Part shown: piece by piece, positions 96-8,695 of the stretch
How positions within the stretch are numbered: position 1 is the first letter of the stretch
How the letters are laid out: each line of letters opens with the position of its first letter
Program-made: the position numbers and the translations under genes
The notes under the pieces: model-generated
What the model was told of the DNA's origin: nothing
The model's database searches: none
The model's input: the letters and a program-made list of their open reading frames with translations, nothing else
Virus genome (UHGV): UHGV-0169486
Strand: one strand, 5' to 3'
Length of the DNA: 50,405 bases
From: a virus

Positions 96-284
96 GTGCA
101 TTGCCGGACGGGAGGTTATCAAATATCACTTATCATGCTTGCTGACAGGTTGGGAGTGAGTCGGCAAAGTGTTAAGCTAGCGATCCGATCTCTGGAACAG
201 GCCGGAGTAATAGCCATTTGCAGGAGTAAATTGCATGGACGCCAACAAGCTAACGTTTATGTCATCTTAAAAATCAAAAAATAG
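96..284 (+). CDS. small winged-helix DNA-binding protein (start uncertain, possibly truncated)
   Basis: ORF track; HTH-like segment LADRLGVSRQSVKLAIRSLEQAGVI; in-frame stop at 39-41, no in-frame ATG before GTG at 96. Confidence 0.3.
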   Translation: MHCRTGGYQISLIMLADRLGVSRQSVKLAIRSLEQAGVIAICRSKLHGRQQANVYVILKIKK

Positions 285-413
285 CCACCTGATAGCGCCT
301 CTGACGCAAGAAAGACACTGCACTCTTATAAGTGGGTTACGCGGTGGGATTTTGCGTTGTAGCGCGTTTTACGGGAAATAAATATACATTCTGTAAACAT
401 GAGGAATAACGTT

Positions 414-1532
414 ATGTCACAAAGAAAGATCAGCGATGAGGAATTAATCGCTGAACATAACAGCGGCCTGACGTATAAACAGATCGCTGAGAAGTACGGC
501 ATGGCAAAACGCAACGTCGAGCGCCTGGGCGCACGGCTGGCGAAACGCGGTTTAATATCCACGCGCCGCGCGCCGGGTTTTGGTGTCAATGGTGAATCAT
601 TGCTCGTTGATAAAGATGGCAATGTAATCATGCGCTGGATTAAAACGGCCCGTGACCGTGAGGAAATGGAAAGGCTAATGCAGGCAGCTTGTGACGCATT
701 TACGGAAGAAATGCCGCGCGAGGAAGCCGTGCCAGTGCCGGAAATTGATTTTCAGAAAAGCCTGGCCCTTTATCCGGTATTCGATCTGCATATCGGGGCG
801 CTTGCGCATAAAGCTGAATGCGGAGAAAGCTACGACACCGGGATCGCTGAACGCGTGTTAAATGACTTCTTTGACTACGCTGTAGGCGCTGCACCAACGT
901 CTGAAAAAGCTGTATTGCTTCTCGGCGGTGATGTGCTTCACACGGACGGGCTATTACCAGTGACGCCATCAAGTAATCACGTCTTAGATTGCGATTCACG
1001 CTACGCAAAACTTGTTTATGTGGCGATCCGGTCGGTCCGGCGTGCGGTGGGGAAAATGTTGTTAAACCATAAGGACGTCGAGATCCAGGTGTTATCCGGC
1101 AATCACGATCAGTCGGGGATGATTTGGCTACGTGCGGCGCTGGCGGCTTTTTACGAAGATGAACCGCGCGTAACGGTTGATGTGTCCCCTGCTATCGTCC
1201 ACCACACACAATACGGAAAAACATTCCTTGCTTACCACCACGGACACACCATCAAAAAACCAGAAACCTTACTTGCTGCCTGTGTTTCTGACTGGCGGGA
1301 GGATTTCGGTAAATCGTCGTCAGTTTACGCTCATTGCGGACACTGGCATCACCAGCGGCTGATTGAATCATCGTTAGGCGTTGTCGAGTATCACGGAACG
1401 TTAGCTGGCAAAGATGCTTACTCGACGAATGGCGGCTGGCGTTCACGGCGGCTGGCGGCGGTGATTATTTACAGCCCGGCTCATGGAGAAATTGGGCGCT
1501 TTGTTTATTACCCTGAATATTCCATTTTGTAA
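414..1532 (+). CDS. HTH domain fused to calcineurin-like metallophosphoesterase
   Basis: Motifs DLHIG, GGDVLHTDG, GNHD, HHGH, GHWHH in canonical order; N-terminal HTH LTYKQIAEKYGMAKRNVERL; ATG 414 has GAGGAA RBS (track start 399 lacks one). Confidence 0.75.
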   Translation: MSQRKISDEELIAEHNSGLTYKQIAEKYGMAKRNVERLGARLAKRGLISTRRAPGFGVNGESLLVDKDGNVIMRWIKTARDREEMERLMQAACDAFTEEMPREEAVPVPEIDFQKSLALYPVFDLHIGALAHKAECGESYDTGIAERVLNDFFDYAVGAAPTSEKAVLLLGGDVLHTDGLLPVTPSSNHVLDCDSRYAKLVYVAIRSVRRAVGKMLLNHKDVEIQVLSGNHDQSGMIWLRAALAAFYEDEPRVTVDVSPAIVHHTQYGKTFLAYHHGHTIKKPETLLAACVSDWREDFGKSSSVYAHCGHWHHQRLIESSLGVVEYHGTLAGKDAYSTNGGWRSRRLAAVIIYSPAHGEIGRFVYYPEYSIL

Positions 1533-1550
1533 ACATGAGGTAATGCCATA

Positions 1551-2972
1551 ATGATAACTGACCAAGTAAACTCATTGCGGCAGGAGCGCGAAGCGGCTGT
1601 TATAGGTGGCCTCCTGTTAGGCGGGCTTACTCCTAACGCGCAAGATGTTCTTGCTACACTCGATCCTGATGTATTCACTATTCCTCTGTACAGGCGCGCG
1701 TTCGAAATCATCAGGGCGCAAGCCAGAAACAGAAATCTTATCGACGCGTTATTGGTTGGTGATGAAATCGGTAACGAAAATTTCATACCGCTAATGCAAA
1801 CGGCGCGATCGTGTCCTTCTGCTGCCAACCTGAAAGGGTACGCGCAGCTACTACAGGAAGAACACCAGCGGCGGCAAATGCTGGAGCTAATGGAAGACGT
1901 TCGCTACAAGCTGGAAACGGGGACGCTTGAAGTTGTCAAAGAGACGATGAAAGATTTTGATTCCCGGTATTCAAAATTAAAGGTAACAAAAGATCAGATT
2001 ATCCCGGTGCTGTTGCGCGATGCTGTCCAGGAATACACGGAAGTGCTAAGTAAACGCATGGAGTGTGGCGTGAACTCTGACAACATCAAAACAGGGATTG
2101 ACCCACTCGACGAAATGTTAGGCGGCATTAACGCTACTGATCTGGTGCTTATCGCCGGACGCCCGGGGTCTGGTAAATCGGCGTTGGCGTTGGCAATTGC
2201 CCGCGCGGCGGCTGGACGCCAATACCCTGGCGGAGAAGGTCAGCGGGTCGGCGTTTTGCTGTTCACGCTTGAAATGTCGCTCGATCAGATGACTGAACGA
2301 GCTATCGCTGGCGCTGGGAATTTATCAACGGATTGCCTACGTAATCCGGTAAAACTGGATGACGAAGGATGGGCGCACGTTGCCCGGGGGATGAGCGCCC
2401 TTGCCGATCTCGATGTGTGGATTGTTGACGCATCGCAGTTAACGGTTGAGGAAATACGCGCCACCGTCGAACGGATGAAACAGGACCATCCTAATCTTGG
2501 AATGGTGATGATTGACTACATCGGGTTAATGAAACTGGCTAAGGCCGAACGTCATGATCTCGCCGTAGGGCAATTGTCGTGGTCATTGAAAATGATGGCG
2601 AAAGAGTTGCGCGTGCCAGTGGCGGCGCTGGCGCAATTATCCCGCCGCGTTGAAGAACGACCGAACAAGCGCCCGAACAATTCTGATCTGCGTGATTCCG
2701 GTAATCTTGAACAAGACGCAGACCGGATCATCATGGTCTACCGCGACGGCTACTACAACGAACAATCAGTTGCCCGCGAATACATGGAGATCATCGTTTC
2801 AAAAAACCGTTACGGGAAAACGGGGACTGTTTACCAGCGGTTTGACGATAACGGCAACATCATTCCATGCAACCAGGCTCGCGCGGCGTCCGCCTGCATC
2901 CAGTCAATGCAACAACGTCCGGCAGCAAGCCGATTCTCCACACGAAATAACCAGAATAACGCATCCTTTTAA
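1551..2972 (+). CDS. DnaB-family replicative helicase
   Basis: Walker A GRPGSGKS, DnaB-like N-terminal domain, RecA-like C-terminal domain; GAGG RBS. Confidence 0.85.
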   Translation: MITDQVNSLRQEREAAVIGGLLLGGLTPNAQDVLATLDPDVFTIPLYRRAFEIIRAQARNRNLIDALLVGDEIGNENFIPLMQTARSCPSAANLKGYAQLLQEEHQRRQMLELMEDVRYKLETGTLEVVKETMKDFDSRYSKLKVTKDQIIPVLLRDAVQEYTEVLSKRMECGVNSDNIKTGIDPLDEMLGGINATDLVLIAGRPGSGKSALALAIARAAAGRQYPGGEGQRVGVLLFTLEMSLDQMTERAIAGAGNLSTDCLRNPVKLDDEGWAHVARGMSALADLDVWIVDASQLTVEEIRATVERMKQDHPNLGMVMIDYIGLMKLAKAERHDLAVGQLSWSLKMMAKELRVPVAALAQLSRRVEERPNKRPNNSDLRDSGNLEQDADRIIMVYRDGYYNEQSVAREYMEIIVSKNRYGKTGTVYQRFDDNGNIIPCNQARAASACIQSMQQRPAASRFSTRNNQNNASF

Positions 2973-3051
2973 TTAACTTGAGCAAACGGCTTACCGGAAA
3001 GTTGATCTCTTTCTGGTGGCTGTTTTCGCGCTTAAAACGAGACGAAAAACA

Positions 3052-3609
3052 ATGAGCATTGAACTTGAAACAAAAGTTATCAATATCCTTGAACTGGACT
3101 GCATCGCAACAATGCACCAGCTACGCCAGAAAACCGGATTATCAGCGAAATATGACGAAGCCGGATGTTTGCCTGAGACAATTAAACACTTGATTGATAC
3201 TGGTATTGTCGAGCGTGTATATACATATTTCGGACCGCGCCGCAGATTATTGGGGTATCGAATTAAATATTTGTATGCACAACGTCGTGATCGTGTGGCG
3301 GCGTTATTTAGTGACTACAGCGTTAAGAAGCGTATGCGTGACATTAGCGCGGAAACTGGTATCCCGTGGAATTACCTGTCGCGCACGCTGCGTTTAATGG
3401 TACTTGATGAAACGCTTTGCATAGACACCAAAAAACACGGCCTTAACTTTTACTCACTGTTTAAACCTGGGCGCTTTGGTCACGCTAATGATCTCGCGTT
3501 TGATTTTGACAGCCGCCTGAATGAATACCGGAAAAATAACGGCCTGTTACCGGATAAACCAGTATTTGAGATCGAAAAACTTAACGGTGAAACGGGGTTA
3601 GAATTATGA
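3052..3609 (+). CDS. hypothetical protein
   Basis: ORF track (3016..3609); ATG 3052 preferred over upstream GTG; same operon as helicase. Confidence 0.5.
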   Translation: MSIELETKVINILELDCIATMHQLRQKTGLSAKYDEAGCLPETIKHLIDTGIVERVYTYFGPRRRLLGYRIKYLYAQRRDRVAALFSDYSVKKRMRDISAETGIPWNYLSRTLRLMVLDETLCIDTKKHGLNFYSLFKPGRFGHANDLAFDFDSRLNEYRKNNGLLPDKPVFEIEKLNGETGLEL

Positions 3610-3812
3610 GACGGGTAATCTTTTATTCAGTTGAAACGTTTGTCGACGATACGCGCGTTTATTATCCGTGGGAAGTATACGACGCAAAGGTGTATACACC
3701 GCCACTGATGCGGAAATATAAACACGTAAAATTTAACCGGGTTTTTGTGCCAATGCACGATGCATTGCGGGCGCTGCGTGGGGAATTGCGAAACACAATG
3801 CGGATTGTGTAA
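3606..3812 (+). CDS. hypothetical protein
   Basis: ORF track; ATGA start/stop overlap with upstream gene. Confidence 0.5.
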   Translation: MRRVIFYSVETFVDDTRVYYPWEVYDAKVYTPPLMRKYKHVKFNRVFVPMHDALRALRGELRNTMRIV

Positions 3813-3821
3813 GGGGGAATT

Positions 3822-4019
3822 ATGGACAAGGATTTAGAATTGACCGTGGAGGATTTAAGCACGATCGCGGAATACATGCGCGGCGATGATCCTGATAAGC
3901 CTGTCACGGTTGATATGAAAAGATTAAAGGAAAAATACATGACAAGCTCGCGGCTAATTTCTTTGCAGGCGATTATGTATGCGCGTGCTATATGGCGAAA
4001 TAGTAACGGTGTATCATGA
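3822..4019 (+). CDS. hypothetical protein
   Basis: ORF track; RBS AAGGGGG upstream of ATG. Confidence 0.5.
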   Translation: MDKDLELTVEDLSTIAEYMRGDDPDKPVTVDMKRLKEKYMTSSRLISLQAIMYARAIWRNSNGVS

Positions 4020-4447
4020 GGCAAATTAGATTTGAGATAGTCAACGACGCAGTGAAAGAAAATGCTATCAGGCAGATAAGAGAGATCCAGCCTGATAGCA
4101 AAAGCCCGCTGATAATCACCATTCAGGAGAAAACCCGCTCGCTAAGCCAAAATGCGTTGCTTTGGGCGCTGTTGACCGACATTAGCGATCAGGTTAATTG
4201 GTACGGTAAGAAGCTGTCGCCGGAAGACTGGAAAGCGGTATTCACTGCCGGACTTAAGAAATATGGCGTAGTCCCTAACCTGGATAAATCAGGCTTCGTT
4301 GTATTGGGAACGTCTACAAGTCGAATGAGTAAATCAGAATTCAGCGAACTAATCGAATTGATTTACTCGTTCGGCGCGGAACATGATGTTCAATGGTCGG
4401 GTGATACGAAATTAAACGAGGAATTTATAAAACGCTGGGGGCAATAA
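4016..4447 (+). CDS. ninB: NinB-like recombination protein
   Basis: Recalled similarity to lambda NinB (QERNRSLDQN / VFTAALK / GFVVIGQSTSRM equivalents); ATGA overlap with upstream gene. Confidence 0.8.
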   Translation: MRQIRFEIVNDAVKENAIRQIREIQPDSKSPLIITIQEKTRSLSQNALLWALLTDISDQVNWYGKKLSPEDWKAVFTAGLKKYGVVPNLDKSGFVVLGTSTSRMSKSEFSELIELIYSFGAEHDVQWSGDTKLNEEFIKRWGQ

Positions 4448-4623
4448 TGGCGCGTTATTACATGGCTAAACCTACCGGAATTTTGTATAAGGTTGATGGC
4501 GAATATGTTTATTACTTCCACAACCAGGCGCGGGAGTGGCGATTGTGTCACGCTCACTTTCAGCACGAAATAGAAAATCACCCTGAATATTTTATCAAAG
4601 TTGACAACGTAACTGTGGCGTAA
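4447..4623 (+). CDS. hypothetical small protein (58 aa, below track cutoff)
   Basis: Own translation MARYYMAKPTGILYKVDGEYVYYFHNQAREW...; start overlaps NinB stop (TAATG). Confidence 0.4.
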   Translation: MARYYMAKPTGILYKVDGEYVYYFHNQAREWRLCHAHFQHEIENHPEYFIKVDNVTVA

Positions 4624-4638
4624 TTGAGGATAAGCAAA

Positions 4639-5292
4639 ATGAATAAACTAAAAGCAATTGGCGTGATTAGCCATCGCACTAACCCTGAATGTTACCCATC
4701 GTTTGAGGTAACAACATGCCGCACAGAATATAATTTTGGATCATACTATTTATTGGGTGTCCGCGCTGACACTGGCGGCACTTATTCGGTTATGGCTGCA
4801 AGCTGGAAATTTGATAAATACGCTAATTTATCGAATAAGGATGATGACGGCATGAATAAAGAAAGTGAAATCATTGATGAATTAATCGAAGATGAACGCC
4901 ATGATTGCGAAACACAACAAGAAAAAACAGAATGGAAGCCAGGAGAAAAGCCGCCGTGCGGCGTGTGGCTTGATTGTTATTATCCTGATGGCTATTACAT
5001 TGGGATTGTAATGTTTAAGTTTATCGGTGATAAATACGGGGTATACACAGAAAAAGGCAGTATACAGAAAGAAAATGCTATTGAATGGGGTTTTTATAAT
5101 TATTATTTATACGTTGATCCGAAAGAAAAAGCACTGGCGCAAATTGCGTTTGCTCTGGCTACGAAGGTTATTGGTGAGGATGCGGCAGGAGAAATAAATT
5201 TCAATCGTGATAATGATTATTCGCGTGATTATCGCAATATGGCGCAAGCTATTATTGACGGATGTATCGGACACGTTGAATACACGGAATAA
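4639..5292 (+). CDS. hypothetical protein, AT-rich accessory gene
   Basis: ORF track (4624..5292); ATG 4639 with GAGGA RBS; AT-rich codon usage by eye; Cys-containing, no recognised domain. Confidence 0.55.
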   Translation: MNKLKAIGVISHRTNPECYPSFEVTTCRTEYNFGSYYLLGVRADTGGTYSVMAASWKFDKYANLSNKDDDGMNKESEIIDELIEDERHDCETQQEKTEWKPGEKPPCGVWLDCYYPDGYYIGIVMFKFIGDKYGVYTEKGSIQKENAIEWGFYNYYLYVDPKEKALAQIAFALATKVIGEDAAGEINFNRDNDYSRDYRNMAQAIIDGCIGHVEYTE

Positions 5293-5426
5293 TGGATAAA
5301 ACAGGGACAATCCTTCTTAGTCGCCCTGCCATCTGCCGGATGCTTGGTGGAATTAGCAGGGGAACATTTTATTTATGGCGTAAAAAATGGGAACGGAACG
5401 GAACTCCGTTCCCCTGTCTGGAATGA
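5292..5426 (+). CDS. AlpA-like small HTH protein (44 aa)
   Basis: Own translation MDKTGTILLSRPAICRMLGGISRGTFYLWRKKWERNGTPFPCLE; GISRGTFY..W....FP pattern typical of AlpA/excisionase-like HTH; TAATG coupling to upstream gene. Confidence 0.4.
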   Translation: MDKTGTILLSRPAICRMLGGISRGTFYLWRKKWERNGTPFPCLE

Positions 5427-5511
5427 TTAACGACATGAATAATCATTTGTAAAACAGCATGTTATGTTATCTTTGCTTTGGATTTTTGATATTTGGTCAC
5501 TATTTGGTACA

Positions 5512-5541
5512 CAAAAAGAAACGAGGAGTTAGCCTCGTTTC
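5512..5541 (-). terminator. rho-independent terminator at end of minus-strand late block
   Basis: Stem GAAACGAGG/CCTCGTTTC, 6-nt loop, T-run on minus strand; immediately downstream of 5585..5851 gene. Confidence 0.6.
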
Positions 5542-5584: not shown

Positions 5585-5851
5585 TCAAGCCCATGCGCGG
5601 ACGCCTGGATCTAGAACGATGAATTTTTCCAGCGGCGACAAATCAACATCGTCGCCAGTAATGCGCATGTTGACGTAATAGCCCTTTTTCTCAATCAGTA
5701 CAGGTGTCTCACTTTCTGGATCATCGAATACAGGCACAAAACCAATTTCATCAACAAATACGGTTGACCAGTTGGCGTCCAGCCAGCCGCTCTTAATCAC
5801 AATATCGTTGTATTGCTGTTTATCAGTAAATTGCAAGCTAACATCTTTCAT
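5585..5851 (-). CDS. hypothetical protein downstream of tail fiber (possible fiber accessory/assembly protein)
   Basis: ORF track (5585..5869); ATG 5851 with AAGGTGG RBS. Confidence 0.5.
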   Translation of the reverse strand: MKDVSLQFTDKQQYNDIVIKSGWLDANWSTVFVDEIGFVPVFDDPESETPVLIEKKGYYVNMRITGDDVDLSPLEKFIVLDPGVRAWA

Positions 5852-5861
5852 ATTCACCACC

Positions 5862-7625
5862 TTAAACAATCTCGCTCAATTGCGCATCGGTCAATGCTTT
5901 GTGCCATACCCTGAAATTTCTAATGTGTCCAAAAAGATGTCGCACCCCCGACGTGGCTTGCCCGCCAAAACGGATTGACGTAGCACTGACTGCGAATACA
6001 TTGCCGCTTGGTTTGGTTGTATATTTACCGTTGCACACGGCATCGACCGAAAGATTCTGCTGCGCGCGAACACCAGCAATAAAGTGACGGCTTTCGGGCT
6101 GAATTAACGGTTGCACCATTCCTACGTTAGCCGCAATCTCACCCGTGCTAACAAATCCAAGCGATAAGTAATTATCATTACTCCTATTACCTCCAACATC
6201 AAAAATTCGAGGCGATTGGTTTGGCGGCGTACCCCAGTTTACGTGCACCTCGACCAGTGATGTGAACGGTAGGGATGATAGATTGTTTTCTGCGAAGATA
6301 TTGACCATATCGCTGGCGCGCGTTGTCGGTAATGTGCCGGAGATGATATATGAGGACGCCCCTATTCCTAGCTCAACTTGCGGTGTGGTTAGTTCGATAT
6401 AATCCCCGGCAGCATAACTACTCACTGGCGAGATCTGGAACTGTGCGTTAACCAATGCCGTGGTGGATTGCAGCATCACCACCGCGCGATTCCATCCGGT
6501 GACCTCGTCTCTCTCAACTTCTACCGTGATACGTTTCGCAGCGCCACCAGTTTTAGACACTGACAAGTCGCTAAGTTTAATGTATGCGTCGCCGGAGAAA
6601 GTCATACTACTCTGATCCGCACCCTCTGCAAAACGCACGCGCAGACGTACATCCTTGTCGGACCGGAATCGGCATGATGCCGTTACATATTTCTCGTCAC
6701 CAGACGTATCAAGACTGTTAGCCGCAGTTACGGAAGCCATATTAAACGCCGTATTTTTTCCTACACCATCGGCCACGATCACGCACTTACCGTACAGGAA
6801 GCCGAAGGCATCCGTGTTTGCAGTTGTCGTAACTGACGGCGAGCACCCCCAGCTTGATGGAGTGTTACCGTTTATAATGTAGTTAGTTCTGGTCCCTTCA
6901 ACCAGCAGCCCTTCTCGTTCAAAACGTGGTTCGTCAATGGCTGCTTCCTTAAACACACCGGATTTGTTTATATAAGTTGCTTTTGACGCGCGTTTAAATT
7001 TAACGATCTTGTCACCTGGTACTGTTGTTTCTTCTTCACCAATAACAATCTTTTTATAGGAAGGGGAAAACCCGGTAATCATGTCGAGAGAGTCGTTAAA
7101 CGGTATCCATACGTCCGGCAGCGGCTGCAAAACATACGCGTAAGGCTGCGCTGTCTGATTGGCGTATTCGCGGGCCTCGTCTCTGTATGTCTTAGCTGAA
7201 TCGGCGGCGCTTGTCGCTGTTGTTGCAGCGTTGGTTGCAGTGGTAGCTGATTGTGACGCTAATTTTGATGCTGAAATCACATCTTTGTTGTCGCTGAAAA
7301 ATTCGACGGCGTCAGCTATTTCTGATTCCTTGCCTTGATAGTAACGCAGTGTTTCGGCGACATCCTGAGCAAGACCATCTACAGAGATCGAGTCTGAAAG
7401 CAGGATGCTAAATTTAGTGCCAGCCGGAATAGCAGGACTTGCCGAGGGGGTTACTGATAAACTTGTTGCGCTTTTTACCTCTGTAATTGAAAAAATCTGC
7501 ACCGGATCGCTAATGGCAATAAGAGTGCAACCAACCCTGATCAGAGATAATGCGGCGTTGAATTCAGTCCCTGTCCCGGTAACTGTTTTTCCGCTAACGG
7601 CTATCGTGCCTGTTGTGTAAATCAT
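5862..7625 (-). CDS. side tail fiber / receptor-binding protein
   Basis: ORF track (5862..7679); ATG 7625 with AAGGAG RBS lies downstream of a TATAAT promoter; Thr/Gly-rich N-terminus, Ala/Thr/Ser-rich central segment, C-terminal lectin-like region. Confidence 0.8.
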   Translation of the reverse strand: MIYTTGTIAVSGKTVTGTGTEFNAALSLIRVGCTLIAISDPVQIFSITEVKSATSLSVTPSASPAIPAGTKFSILLSDSISVDGLAQDVAETLRYYQGKESEIADAVEFFSDNKDVISASKLASQSATTATNAATTATSAADSAKTYRDEAREYANQTAQPYAYVLQPLPDVWIPFNDSLDMITGFSPSYKKIVIGEEETTVPGDKIVKFKRASKATYINKSGVFKEAAIDEPRFEREGLLVEGTRTNYIINGNTPSSWGCSPSVTTTANTDAFGFLYGKCVIVADGVGKNTAFNMASVTAANSLDTSGDEKYVTASCRFRSDKDVRLRVRFAEGADQSSMTFSGDAYIKLSDLSVSKTGGAAKRITVEVERDEVTGWNRAVVMLQSTTALVNAQFQISPVSSYAAGDYIELTTPQVELGIGASSYIISGTLPTTRASDMVNIFAENNLSSLPFTSLVEVHVNWGTPPNQSPRIFDVGGNRSNDNYLSLGFVSTGEIAANVGMVQPLIQPESRHFIAGVRAQQNLSVDAVCNGKYTTKPSGNVFAVSATSIRFGGQATSGVRHLFGHIRNFRVWHKALTDAQLSEIV

Positions 7626-7655
7626 CGCAATGACTCCTTTGTTATTAGTTATAAT

Positions 7656-7684
7656 ATTATACCAACTGTATTTGCTCACACAAA
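7656..7684 (-). promoter_or_regulatory. sigma70-like promoter for side tail fiber gene
   Basis: Perfect -10 TATAAT with TTTGTG 17 nt upstream, read on minus strand. Confidence 0.4.
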
Positions 7685-7732: not shown

Positions 7733-8695
7733 ATGGGGCAAGGTTTATACATAGATCTTAATGATGGCCGTCCGGCGATGGAAATTACTTCAGGATTAAG
7801 AGCGCCGTCATATTGCGGATCGTTTGGGTCAATTCCCGCCGAAACCACAAGCTATACATTCACAATGCCAACCTGCTTCCCTGGTGGTAGTGACGGTTTT
7901 TTCTTTTCATTAAAGCCTGCAACTATAAAAGAAGTTTATCCAACTACTAATGTATGCTGGATCAGCAATGTTACTAAGTTAAACTCTACTCAATGGAAGG
8001 TAGATTTTGGTTATGCAAACGGGCCCGGATGGGAAGGTGATACCGTACTGGTTAGCGGTTTGTTTTTTGAAATAGGATACCCAAGCAATAGCGGAGCTGG
8101 TTTATATATAAGAGATTCAACTGATTTCACTACGATAACAACGAATTCTAATTTATTATGTTGCACTTACGCTGGGAACATTACGTTTACTGGGACTTAT
8201 AATTTGCCGTCTGGAACTGTGGTGGCGTTTGGTAGATGGGATGATCCTAATGTTGTTGTTGAAAGATCAGGGAACACCATAAAGTGTACAAGAGTCGCGC
8301 TAGGGAGTGATTACATCACCGTTGACGCAACTGTTAACATGGATTTAGTTGTATTTAGAAGGCAGACTCCTGCTGCTGGCAATGCTGGATTGGTAATGAG
8401 GAATGCATCCGGTCAGGTTGTGTTCTCAACGGCACAAAGGCCGTTTGTTTTTGGTGGTACATTTAACATGGCTAATGGTAATCAATATATAGGCAATGCA
8501 TTCGTTCCTATAGCAAGATACGGCGCGTTAACTGAGAAAAACATAAATATGTACTATTATTACTATTACGGCGCAATAAGATCAGGTGGATACATTAGAC
8601 CAAGCAGGGGGAGTCTGATAGTTGCAAGGACAAATGGGAGGCATGTAAACGCTATCGCTAACATTAATTACCCGCTGTTACCAGCAATGTATTGA
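7733..8695 (+). CDS. hypothetical beta-rich protein with three internal repeats; AT-rich opposite-strand accessory gene
   Basis: ORF track; GGGGGAA RBS; AT-rich with AGA/AGG codons; convergent with J; followed by bidirectional terminator. Confidence 0.6.
   Translation: MGQGLYIDLNDGRPAMEITSGLRAPSYCGSFGSIPAETTSYTFTMPTCFPGGSDGFFFSLKPATIKEVYPTTNVCWISNVTKLNSTQWKVDFGYANGPGWEGDTVLVSGLFFEIGYPSNSGAGLYIRDSTDFTTITTNSNLLCCTYAGNITFTGTYNLPSGTVVAFGRWDDPNVVVERSGNTIKCTRVALGSDYITVDATVNMDLVVFRRQTPAAGNAGLVMRNASGQVVFSTAQRPFVFGGTFNMANGNQYIGNAFVPIARYGALTEKNINMYYYYYYGAIRSGGYIRPSRGSLIVARTNGRHVNAIANINYPLLPAMY

What the first reader, a model, noticed from the sequence alone, without database searches (positions are those of the whole stretch)
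4639..5426. AT-rich cargo gene plus AlpA-like HTH at the distal end of the rightward operon
The last genes of the rightward operon are a 217-aa AT-rich protein with scattered Cys/His and Tyr-rich segments and no recognisable domain, and a translationally coupled 44-aa AlpA/excisionase-like HTH protein. An excisionase-like regulator in a genome without a detectable integrase is unexpected and may be a remnant of an integrative ancestor, or a transcriptional regulator for the adjacent cargo gene. An inverted repeat GGGAACGGA/TCCGTTCCC sits inside the AlpA-like ORF.
Basis: partly seen in the sequence, partly recalled or inferred. Interest (0 to 1): 0.45.

Follow-up and report, generated by a model that had tools for sequence, protein, structure and literature searches.

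The report
Truncated excisionase left by integrase deletion
The 44-aa gene is the broken front half of an excisionase-like gene in a gut E. coli phage that lost its integrase and half its attachment site in one 1.4-kb deletion; the 217-aa gene beside it is a conserved gene of unknown function, so the finding is ordinary.

Summary
The ORFs, the 1-nt TAATG overlap, the low G+C (39% against 46%), the inverted repeat and the absence of any integrase are all real.

The window is a complete, circularly permuted, metagenome-assembled genome of the published mEp021 (mEpimmI) group of temperate coliphages.

About 40 relatives were examined. All have the same gene order: NinB, a 58-aa gene, a 217-aa gene, a 72-76-aa HTH gene, then a convergent, overlapping tyrosine integrase, attP and the tail-fibre genes.

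In the window, homology to the HTH gene stops at codon 41 (position 5414). It resumes inside the 12-bp att core, GTCC|TGTCTGGA. A 1,439-bp segment is missing. It held the last 35 HTH codons, all of int and the P arm.

"Remnant of an integrative ancestor" is therefore right. "Regulator of a cargo gene" is not. The 217-aa gene is a fixed member of this phage group with no known relatives and unknown function. Integrase involvement in the deletion is plausible but unproven.

The parts
4639..5292 (+). 217-aa gene, the homologue of mEp021 gp03. It is a conserved protein of the mEpimmI phage group with unknown function. The model shows two small beta-barrels, a disordered acidic linker and a helical C-terminus.
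   Evidence: ORF. There are 421 homologues, all from E. coli or its phages and all named hypothetical. Only 9 cluster representatives exist at 50% identity. It occupies the same position in every relative. AF2 model and fold searches.
5284..5291 (+). Site of a 6-nt gap (between 5287 and 5288) relative to all relatives. It removes the Shine-Dalgarno sequence of the HTH gene and shortens the 217-aa C-terminus from ...YTGDK to ...YTE.
   Evidence: Alignment A8. The GGGGG ribosome-binding site is annotated in mEp021.
5292..5426 (+). Truncated excisionase-like (winged-helix HTH) gene. Codons 1-41 (5292-5414) are identical to the 76-aa protein of the E. coli M15 prophage. Codons 42-44 and the stop are read from the att core and P' arm.
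5382..5413 (-). Inverted repeat 5389-5397 / 5405-5413 followed by a T-run when read on the - strand. In relatives it lies about 50-75 nt past the int stop codon, so it is probably the terminator of the now-deleted int gene. It is embedded in the HTH coding sequence.
   Evidence: Terminator-like site. Folds of 9 relatives: a clear local hairpin in 4 to 6, none in the mEp021, mEp554 and STEC308 loci. On the + strand no T-run follows.
5413..5414 (.). Deletion junction, with a 2-nt microhomology CC. To the left is the HTH gene. To the right is the att core from its third to fifth base onward.
   Evidence: The M15 prophage matches the window up to 5414 on the int side and from 5413 on the tail side. 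Site-by-site comparison with the intact attP of L035.
5413..5422 (.). Retained part of the att common core, CCTGTCTGGA, out of GTCCTGTCTGGA.
   Evidence: Core defined from both prophage ends in E. coli M15 and the empty K-12 dgcM site.
5423..5517 (.). P' arm of the former attP. It includes the inverted repeat AATGATTA/TAATCATT (5422-5447) and a 25-bp element at 5489-5513. Intact relatives carry a second copy of that element in the P arm, so it is a candidate arm-type Int site.
   Evidence: 96.8% identity to the tail-side end of the M15 prophage. Repeats.
5518..5541 (-). Intrinsic terminator of the leftward late (tail) operon. The hairpin GAAACGAGG/CCTCGTTTC has a T-run on the - strand only.
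   Evidence: The same site is annotated as a terminator in mEp044.

Best explanation
**What the window is.** It is a complete genome of an mEp021-type (mEpimmI) temperate coliphage that has lost its integration module.

**The ancestral layout.** The early rightward operon ended with the 217-aa gene and a translationally coupled 76-aa winged-helix gene. That gene converged on, and overlapped, a P4-type tyrosine integrase. After the integrase came the P arm, the 12-bp core GTCCTGTCTGGA, the P' arm, and the terminator of the tail operon.

**The deletion.** One 1,439-bp deletion joined codon 41 of the winged-helix gene to the middle of the att core. It removed the wing and helix 3 of that protein, all of int, and the P arm. 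The 44-aa ORF is therefore a pseudogene remnant. The inverted repeat inside it is most likely the orphaned terminator of int.

**Inferred consequence.** The phage keeps its repressor and N-like antiterminator but can no longer integrate. Integrase supplied in trans should not rescue it either, because the P arm is gone.

**Inferred role of the full-length protein.** It is the excisionase (recombination directionality factor), or an AlpA-type int activator, of this phage group.

**How the deletion arose (inferred, about even odds).** Integrase acting at the attP core may have started it. For example, a strand exchange could have stalled where the 2-nt homology ends, and the host then resolved it. 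The alternative is ordinary illegitimate recombination.

**The 217-aa protein.** It is a group-specific early accessory protein. It probably acts by binding a protein or nucleic acid through its two SH3/Tudor-like barrels. Its domain-wise mosaicism suggests a variable host or competitor target. This last point is a weak inference.
For: **Group membership.**
- The window is collinear with mEp021 across the whole genome, and its two ends are adjacent on the mEp021 map.
- The repressor is 98% identical to that of mEp021, and the Gp17 homologue is 94% identical.

**Gene order in relatives.** The order 217-aa, HTH (72-76 aa), convergent int holds wherever the DNA extends far enough:
- in phages mEp021, mEp554 and MagusPhagus;
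- in 5 E. coli chromosomes;
- in 3 Logan contigs;
- in 29 of 31 IMG/VR loci, which carry a full-length HTH gene; the other two end too early.

**Breakpoints.**
- Homology ends at 5413/5414 and resumes at 5413.
- The core was defined from the prophage ends and the empty site.
- The intact attP in L035 gives the three-way comparison and the 1,439-bp size.

**State of the HTH ORF.**
- The first 41 aa are identical to the M15 protein, followed by CLE and a stop.
- The Shine-Dalgarno sequence is lost.
- The 44-aa product exists in one record only, DAR54155.1 from a MAG TPA. The junction 25- to 30-mer is absent from three collections.

**No integrase.** all found none.

**Linkage to int.** HTH sequence types co-vary with integrase types I, II and III. 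The same convergent HTH/int pair occurs in an unrelated P22-like context.

**Published background.** The mEpimmI paper (PMC11893012) reports an integrase in every member and insertion in the 5' end of ydaM (dgcM).
Against: **Single assembly.** The genome is one metagenome assembly, and no reads were available to confirm the junction.

**Function untested.** The excisionase role of the full-length protein rests on fold and position only. Sequence models give HTH_23. Xis_Gifsy_1 scores E = 0.016 and HTH_17 scores E = 0.035, both far below their cut-offs.

**Integrase involvement is weakly supported.**
- The partner site in the HTH gene resembles the att core no better than about 12% of positions in the region (6 of 14 matches, rank 262 of 2,150).
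- The junction lies in the middle of the core's CCAG-N6-CTGG symmetry, not at a likely cleavage position.

**Terminator hairpin.** It is weak or absent in the mEp021-type sequences. It is also partly dictated by the codons for WERNGTPFP.

**217-aa protein.**
- About 41 residues have pLDDT below 50.
- The proposed mode of action is therefore close to a guess.
Confidence: 0.82

Rival explanations
1. The junction is an assembly artefact. The real phage would have an intact HTH gene, int and attP, and the assembler would have joined two places wrongly.
For: The 44-aa product is known only from one third-party-annotated metagenome assembly. The junction is found nowhere else.
Against: The two joined sites share only 2 nt, so no k-mer repeat exists to mislead an assembler. 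Both flanks are collinear with relatives, and the genome closes into a circle consistent with the mEp021 map. An independent second lesion, the 6-nt loss of the Shine-Dalgarno sequence, sits in the same gene. This fits a gene that no longer matters.
Confidence: 0.06
2. The 44-aa ORF is a functional small HTH regulator, retained to control the 217-aa gene or other phage genes.
For: The HTH_23 match is above the Pfam cut-off. Helices 1 and 2 of the fold are retained. The TAATG overlap with the upstream gene is kept.
Against: - The form is unique to this genome. All 29 IMG/VR loci that extend far enough, and the other relatives examined here, encode 72-76 aa.
- It lacks the invariant YRY...V..F wing and helix 3.
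- Its last three codons come from att DNA.
- Its Shine-Dalgarno sequence is deleted.
Confidence: 0.05
3. The deletion is real but has nothing to do with integrase. It would be ordinary microhomology-mediated illegitimate recombination or replication slippage, perhaps favoured by the hairpin at the left end. The right end would fall in the att core by chance.
For: The microhomology is only 2 nt. The left end lies exactly at the foot of a 9-bp-stem hairpin. The partner site is not a notably good match to the att core.
Against: The right end had roughly 285 bp of dispensable DNA to fall in, between the int start and the tail-operon terminator in L035. It landed inside the 12-bp core, which is about a 4% chance. 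From my own knowledge of lambda genetics (Parkinson and Huskey 1971; Davis and Parkinson 1971, not re-read here), viable deletions ending at the att crossover point are a known, Int-dependent class.
Confidence: 0.4
4. The lineage never had an integrase at this locus, and the short HTH ORF is the ancestral state.
For: None beyond the absence of int.
Against: The ORF is identical to the first 41 codons of the 76-aa gene and then reads into att DNA. The P' arm, part of the core and one arm-type repeat are still present. These only make sense as leftovers of attP.
Confidence: 0.01

Closest known systems
mEp021 / mEpimmI group of Nus-dependent non-lambdoid temperate coliphages (PMC11893012; MH706966, PP180001-PP180005)
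   Same: The genomes are collinear throughout. The repressor is 98% identical and Gp17 is 94% identical. The window has homologues of gp03 (217 aa) and gp02 (HTH), and its att core and P' arm are of the ydaM (dgcM) type.
   Different: The paper reports an integrase in every member. This genome has none, and it lacks the P arm and the 3' half of gp02. It also lacks gp05, gp10, gp12 and gp78, and it carries a different tail fibre.
AlpA-family and other winged-helix excisionases or recombination directionality factors (GIsul2 Xis 8C3T, RdfS 8DGL, Pukovnik Xis 4J2N, HK022 Xis 1PM6, P2 Cox 4LHF)
   Different: - It has no Phage_AlpA (PF05930) or significant HTH_17 match.
- The gene converges on int and overlaps it at the 3' end, rather than being co-transcribed with it.
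- Its function has not been tested.
- The window's copy is truncated before the wing.
Att-endpoint deletion mutants of phage lambda (the b2 type and Parkinson's att-defective deletions). This comparison comes from my own knowledge and was not re-read here.
   Same: In both, a viable phage carries a deletion with one end at the attachment-site crossover region. One arm is removed and the other is left intact.
   Different: This case is a natural gut phage of a different group. The deletion removes the int side. The junction lies in the middle of the core with 2-nt microhomology, and Int dependence is not shown.

Membership tests
mEpimmI (mEp021-like) phage group | Genome-wide synteny with mEp021 | tested here: met
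   The genomes are collinear, with blastn blocks of 68-96% identity around the whole circle.
mEpimmI (mEp021-like) phage group | Immunity I repressor (Rep021) and N-like Gp17 | tested here: met
   194 of 198 and 89 of 95 residues are identical.
mEpimmI (mEp021-like) phage group | Tyrosine integrase next to attP, reported in all members | tested here: not met
   No integrase was found by Pfam or tblastn. A 1,439-bp deletion lies at the expected place.
Pfam Phage_AlpA (PF05930) | Match to the family HMM above the gathering score | tested here: not met
   There was no hit at E up to 1 for the 44-aa ORF, and none at E up to 0.1 for three full-length relatives.
Pfam HTH_23 (PF13384) | Match to the family HMM above the gathering score | tested here: met
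   The score is 29.2 bits against a cut-off of 24.6, E = 7.8e-7, over residues 9-39.
Excisionase / recombination directionality factor (winged-helix class) | Small beta-alpha-alpha-wing-alpha fold | tested here: met
Excisionase / recombination directionality factor (winged-helix class) | Encoded next to its cognate integrase and inherited with it | tested here: met
   This holds in relatives. The gene converges on and overlaps int in all loci that extend far enough. HTH types I, II and III track integrase types and insertion sites. It does not hold in the window, where int is deleted.
Excisionase / recombination directionality factor (winged-helix class) | Binds repeats in the P arm and stimulates excision or int expression | not testable with these tools
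   Candidate repeats exist in the intact P arm of L035: TTGTACGGA twice and TTGAACGGA once. There are no binding or excision data.
Int-promoted att-endpoint deletion | One endpoint within the att core or overlap region | tested here: met
   The junction is GTCC|TGTCTGGA, with the CC shared by both parents.
Int-promoted att-endpoint deletion | Partner site resembles the core (a secondary att site) | tested here: inconclusive
   The site matches at 6 of 14 positions and ranks 262 of 2,150 positions in the region.
Int-promoted att-endpoint deletion | Formation depends on integrase | not testable with these tools
   This needs an experiment.

The most novel reading that the evidence does not exclude
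Integrase-initiated self-deletion, between the attP core and a site inside the phage's own excisionase gene, may be a recurrent natural route. By it, mEp021-type temperate phages in the gut would turn into non-integrating phages that cannot be rescued in trans. The GAACGGA cluster at the left breakpoint resembles the TTG(T/A)ACGGA repeats of the P arm. It could be a true protein-binding site that brings the two ends together. Separately, the 217-aa two-barrel acidic protein could be a new host-directed or anti-defence factor.
Probability: 0.12. Interest if true: 0.5.

Novelty: new member of a known kind. Interest (0 to 1): 0.25.

Why it matters
- **Annotation.** This genome would otherwise be labelled as carrying a small HTH regulator (its record calls the protein 'DUF603') and as possibly temperate. 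In fact it keeps its repressor but has lost int, the P arm and a working excisionase. It should be scored as integration-defective.
- **The phage group.** The work points to the probable excisionase of the mEpimmI phages (mEp021 gp02), which the paper describing the group does not mention. It also points to a probable int terminator embedded in that gene.
- **A natural case.** The genome is a natural example of a deletion ending in an att core. It could be used to ask how temperate phages lose lysogeny in the gut.
- **Open question.** The 217-aa family remains an uncharacterised, group-specific early gene.

Tried and rejected
**Searches on the 217-aa protein that found nothing useful**
- Pfam, PHROGs, NCBIfam and PADLOC gave no hits, including for its three segments searched separately.
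- A profile search of PDB sequences gave only chance-level hits.
- A full HMMER scan of 1.84 billion cluster representatives found only 9, all close relatives.
- Foldseek against BFVD gave TM-scores no higher than 0.3.
- The AFDB50 library was unavailable.

**Searches for the junction elsewhere**
- Exact-match scans of viral, genome and metagenome contig collections all found nothing.
- An exact look-up of the 44-aa product among called genes found nothing.

**Ideas considered and rejected or left open**
- A hidden integrase elsewhere in the window: rejected.
- A zinc-binding role for the Cys and His residues: rejected, because most of the Cys positions vary and they form no motif.
- The HTH site as a good secondary att site: not supported.
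- The inverted repeat as a rightward terminator: rejected, because the T-run lies on the - strand only.
- Enrichment of the GWACGGA motif genome-wide: absent (9 observed against 9.8 expected). Three of the nine do cluster at 5391-5411.

**Artefacts**
- Two large proteins listed in the 90% clusters of the short HTH peptides, P0143 and P0145, are unrelated clustering artefacts.

Full report
**What is in the sequence**

The + strand carries an unbroken string of genes from 399 to 5426. It ends with a 217-aa ORF (4639-5292) and a 44-aa ORF (5292-5426) that overlap in TAATG. The - strand late genes follow: a 94-aa gene at 5585-5869, a 605-aa tail fibre, and a 1,405-aa J-like protein.

The 217-aa gene is 39.1% G+C against 46.2% for the genome, in the lowest 2% of windows of that length. 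The inverted repeat GGGAACGGA/TCCGTTCCC lies at 5389-5397 and 5405-5413.

**What the genome is**

The region 4000-5414 is 85-93% identical to the mEp phages mEp021, mEp554, mEp010, mEp044, mEp013 and mEp515, and to phage MagusPhagus. It also matches prophages in 33 complete E. coli genomes.

A whole-genome comparison shows the window is collinear with mEp021, and the window's two ends are adjacent on the mEp021 map. It is therefore a complete, circularly permuted genome with no bacterial flanks. The repressor is 98% identical to Rep021, and the N-like Gp17 homologue is 94% identical.

The 44-aa product is identical to DAR54155.1, labelled 'MAG TPA ... Caudoviricetes sp.'. The window is therefore a metagenome-assembled phage genome.

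The group was described in PMC11893012. That paper reports an integrase in every member and insertion mostly in the 5' end of ydaM (dgcM). It does not mention an excisionase.

**The conserved layout in relatives**

In mEp021, mEp554, MagusPhagus, five E. coli chromosomes and three Logan contigs, the order is the same:
- NinB
- a 58-aa gene
- a 215-220-aa gene
- a 72-76-aa HTH gene
- a convergent tyrosine integrase of about 400 aa, with Arm-DNA-bind_3 and Phage_integrase domains, whose 3' end overlaps the HTH gene by 40-60 nt

Of 31 IMG/VR loci that carry the 217-aa homologue, 29 encode a full-length HTH gene. Those that reach further also carry int, and the other two loci end too early.

HTH sequence types track integrase types and insertion sites:
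- type I inserts at dgcM
- type II inserts next to ogt
- type III inserts next to mpaA

A 44%-identical HTH protein in an unrelated P22-like context is again convergent with, and overlaps, a P4-type integrase.

**The deletion**

I defined the att core from the two ends of the E. coli M15 prophage and the empty K-12 site. The identity segment is GTCCTGTCTGGA, inside the first codons of dgcM.

An IMG/VR contig, L035, carries the free-phage form with an intact attP. The three sequences compare as follows:
- HTH gene: ...ACTCCGTTCCCC|GACCCGG...
- attP: ...GCGCTGGTCC|TGTCTGGAATGATTA...
- window: ...ACTCCGTTCCCC|TGTCTGGAATGATTA...

The window matches the int side of the prophage up to 5414. It matches the tail side from 5413 onward, at 96.8% identity through 5974. 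The joint is therefore a 2-nt microhomology, CC.

Relative to L035, 1,439 bp are missing. The missing segment held the last 35 codons of the HTH gene, the whole integrase, and the 175-bp P arm. The P arm carries one copy of a 25-bp repeat and three TTG(T/A)ACGGA repeats.

The window retains the following:
- CCTGTCTGGA of the core
- the P' arm
- the second copy of the 25-bp repeat, at 5489-5513
- the terminator of the tail operon, at 5518-5541

No integrase exists elsewhere in the window.

**The 44-aa ORF**

Its first 41 residues are identical to the 76-aa M15 protein. The last three residues (CLE) and the stop are read from att DNA.

- Pukovnik Xis (3.5), HK022 Xis (3.2) and P2 Cox (3.2)

'Excisionase/AlpA-like' is therefore right for the fold. 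At the sequence level the match is Pfam HTH_23, not Phage_AlpA. Xis_Gifsy_1 and HTH_17 score far below their cut-offs.

The truncated form lacks the invariant YRY..V..F wing and helix 3. A separate 6-nt gap just upstream has removed its Shine-Dalgarno sequence. No other record has this form. The junction sequence is absent from three large collections. I read the ORF as a pseudogene remnant.

**The inverted repeat**

Read on the - strand, it is an 11-pair hairpin followed by ATTTTTT. In relatives it lies about 50-75 nt beyond the int stop codon. A clear local hairpin with a T-rich tail is predicted in four to six of the nine relatives. It is absent in the mEp021, mEp554 and STEC308 loci.

Its most likely role is as terminator of the convergent int gene, embedded in the HTH coding sequence and now orphaned. 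This is an inference, for two reasons. The sequence is partly fixed by the codons for WERNGTPFP. A 9-bp perfect repeat is also not rare by chance.

The left breakpoint falls exactly at the foot of this hairpin.

**How the deletion arose**

The right end had roughly 285 bp of dispensable DNA to fall in, yet it lies inside the 12-bp core. That is about a 4% chance. Deletions ending at the att crossover are a known Int-dependent class in lambda; this is from my own knowledge, and the papers were not re-read here.

Two observations count against a classical secondary-site exchange:
- The partner site matches the core at only 6 of 14 positions, ranking 262 of 2,150.
- The joint is in the middle of the CCAG-N6-CTGG symmetry rather than at a likely cleavage position.

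Both observations would fit one scenario: an Int-made strand exchange that stalled where the 2-nt homology ends and was then resolved by the host. So would plain illegitimate recombination helped by the hairpin. I give the two about even odds.

A misassembly is unlikely. The two joined sites share only 2 nt, and a second lesion sits in the same gene. It cannot be excluded without reads.

**The 217-aa protein**

It has 421 homologues, all from E. coli or its phages and all named hypothetical. A full HMMER scan of 1.84 billion cluster representatives finds only 9. It has no domain or defence-system hit.

The alignment shows four segments:
- an N-terminal segment in two variants
- a nearly invariant acidic stretch, DDDGMNKESEIIDELIEDE
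- a middle segment in at least three variants, combined mosaically with the N-terminal variants
- a conserved C-terminus

Most of the six Cys positions vary, and they form no motif.

The AF2 model has pLDDT 76. It gives two small beta-barrels (residues 8-60 and 110-157), a disordered linker (63-94), and three C-terminal helices. Fold matches are only generic SH3, Tudor, KOW, WYL and Sm barrels, with Z no higher than 5.3. No viral structure matches globally.

The gene is not cargo. It is a fixed early gene of the group and is separable from the HTH-int module. My best guess, with low confidence, is a binding or adaptor protein aimed at a variable host or competitor target.

**Verdict**

The 'remnant of an integrative ancestor' reading is correct and is now defined to the base. 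The 'regulator of a cargo gene' reading is not supported.

This is a new, integration-defective member of a known phage group, with a known kind of lesion. Its interest is modest.

Noticed in passing
window 5284-5291: A 6-nt gap relative to all relatives (ACGG[GGGATA]AATAATGG). It removes the Shine-Dalgarno sequence of the HTH gene and changes the end of the 217-aa protein from ...YTGDK to ...YTE.
   Followed up: yes
window about 5323: A mosaic joint. Window 271-5323 is 95.5% identical to prophages that carry the type II integrase module next to ogt (L009-L011). From about 5323 to 5414 the HTH gene is of type I (M15 and L035).
   Followed up: partly
window 5489-5513; L035 6060-6084 and 6301-6325: A 25-bp element, ATATTTGGTCACTATTTGGTACACA, which contains an internal 11-nt-spaced TATTTGGT repeat. 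Intact relatives have one copy in each att arm, in the same orientation. These are candidate arm-type integrase sites. The window keeps only the P' copy.
   Followed up: partly
window 5391-5411; L035 6092-6194: GAACGGA occurs three times within 21 nt of the HTH remnant, twice direct and once inverted. These are 3 of only 9 GWACGGA sites in the 50-kb genome. The intact P arm of relatives has TTGTACGGA twice, 20 nt apart, and TTGAACGGA once. I could not tell whether this resemblance means a shared binding protein or is chance.
   Followed up: partly
L048-L050 (contigs carrying P0185): The same convergent, 3'-overlapping pair of a 76-aa HTH gene and a P4-type integrase occurs in a P22-like context with Anti-RecBCD_p2 and DUF551 genes. 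The pair is therefore a mobile module shared between phage groups.
   Followed up: no
L003 6250-6270, L006 14690-14760, L007 (K-12 dgcM): The attB core lies in about codons 14-17 of dgcM (ydaM). Insertion separates the first codons from the rest of the gene, and the phage arm supplies no in-frame start. This matches the published insertion site (PMC11893012).
   Followed up: partly
window 5862-7679 (- strand): The 605-aa tail fibre has no match of 85% nucleotide identity or better in the phage collection. Part of it matches the M15 prophage at 92%. It is probably a different host-range module from the named mEp phages.
   Followed up: no
window 96-377, about 1517, about 4020, about 12940: Compared with mEp021, the window lacks gp12 (zinc-ribbon protein; a 62-aa MarR-like HTH ORF lies in its place), gp10 and gp78 (HNH endonucleases), and gp05 (N4/N6 methyltransferase). 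This accounts for most of the roughly 4-kb size difference.
   Followed up: partly
window 7733-8695 (+ strand): A 320-aa DUF6453 protein (E = 8.6e-79) is encoded on the + strand between - strand tail genes. Its mEp021 counterpart is annotated as a virion structural protein.
   Followed up: no
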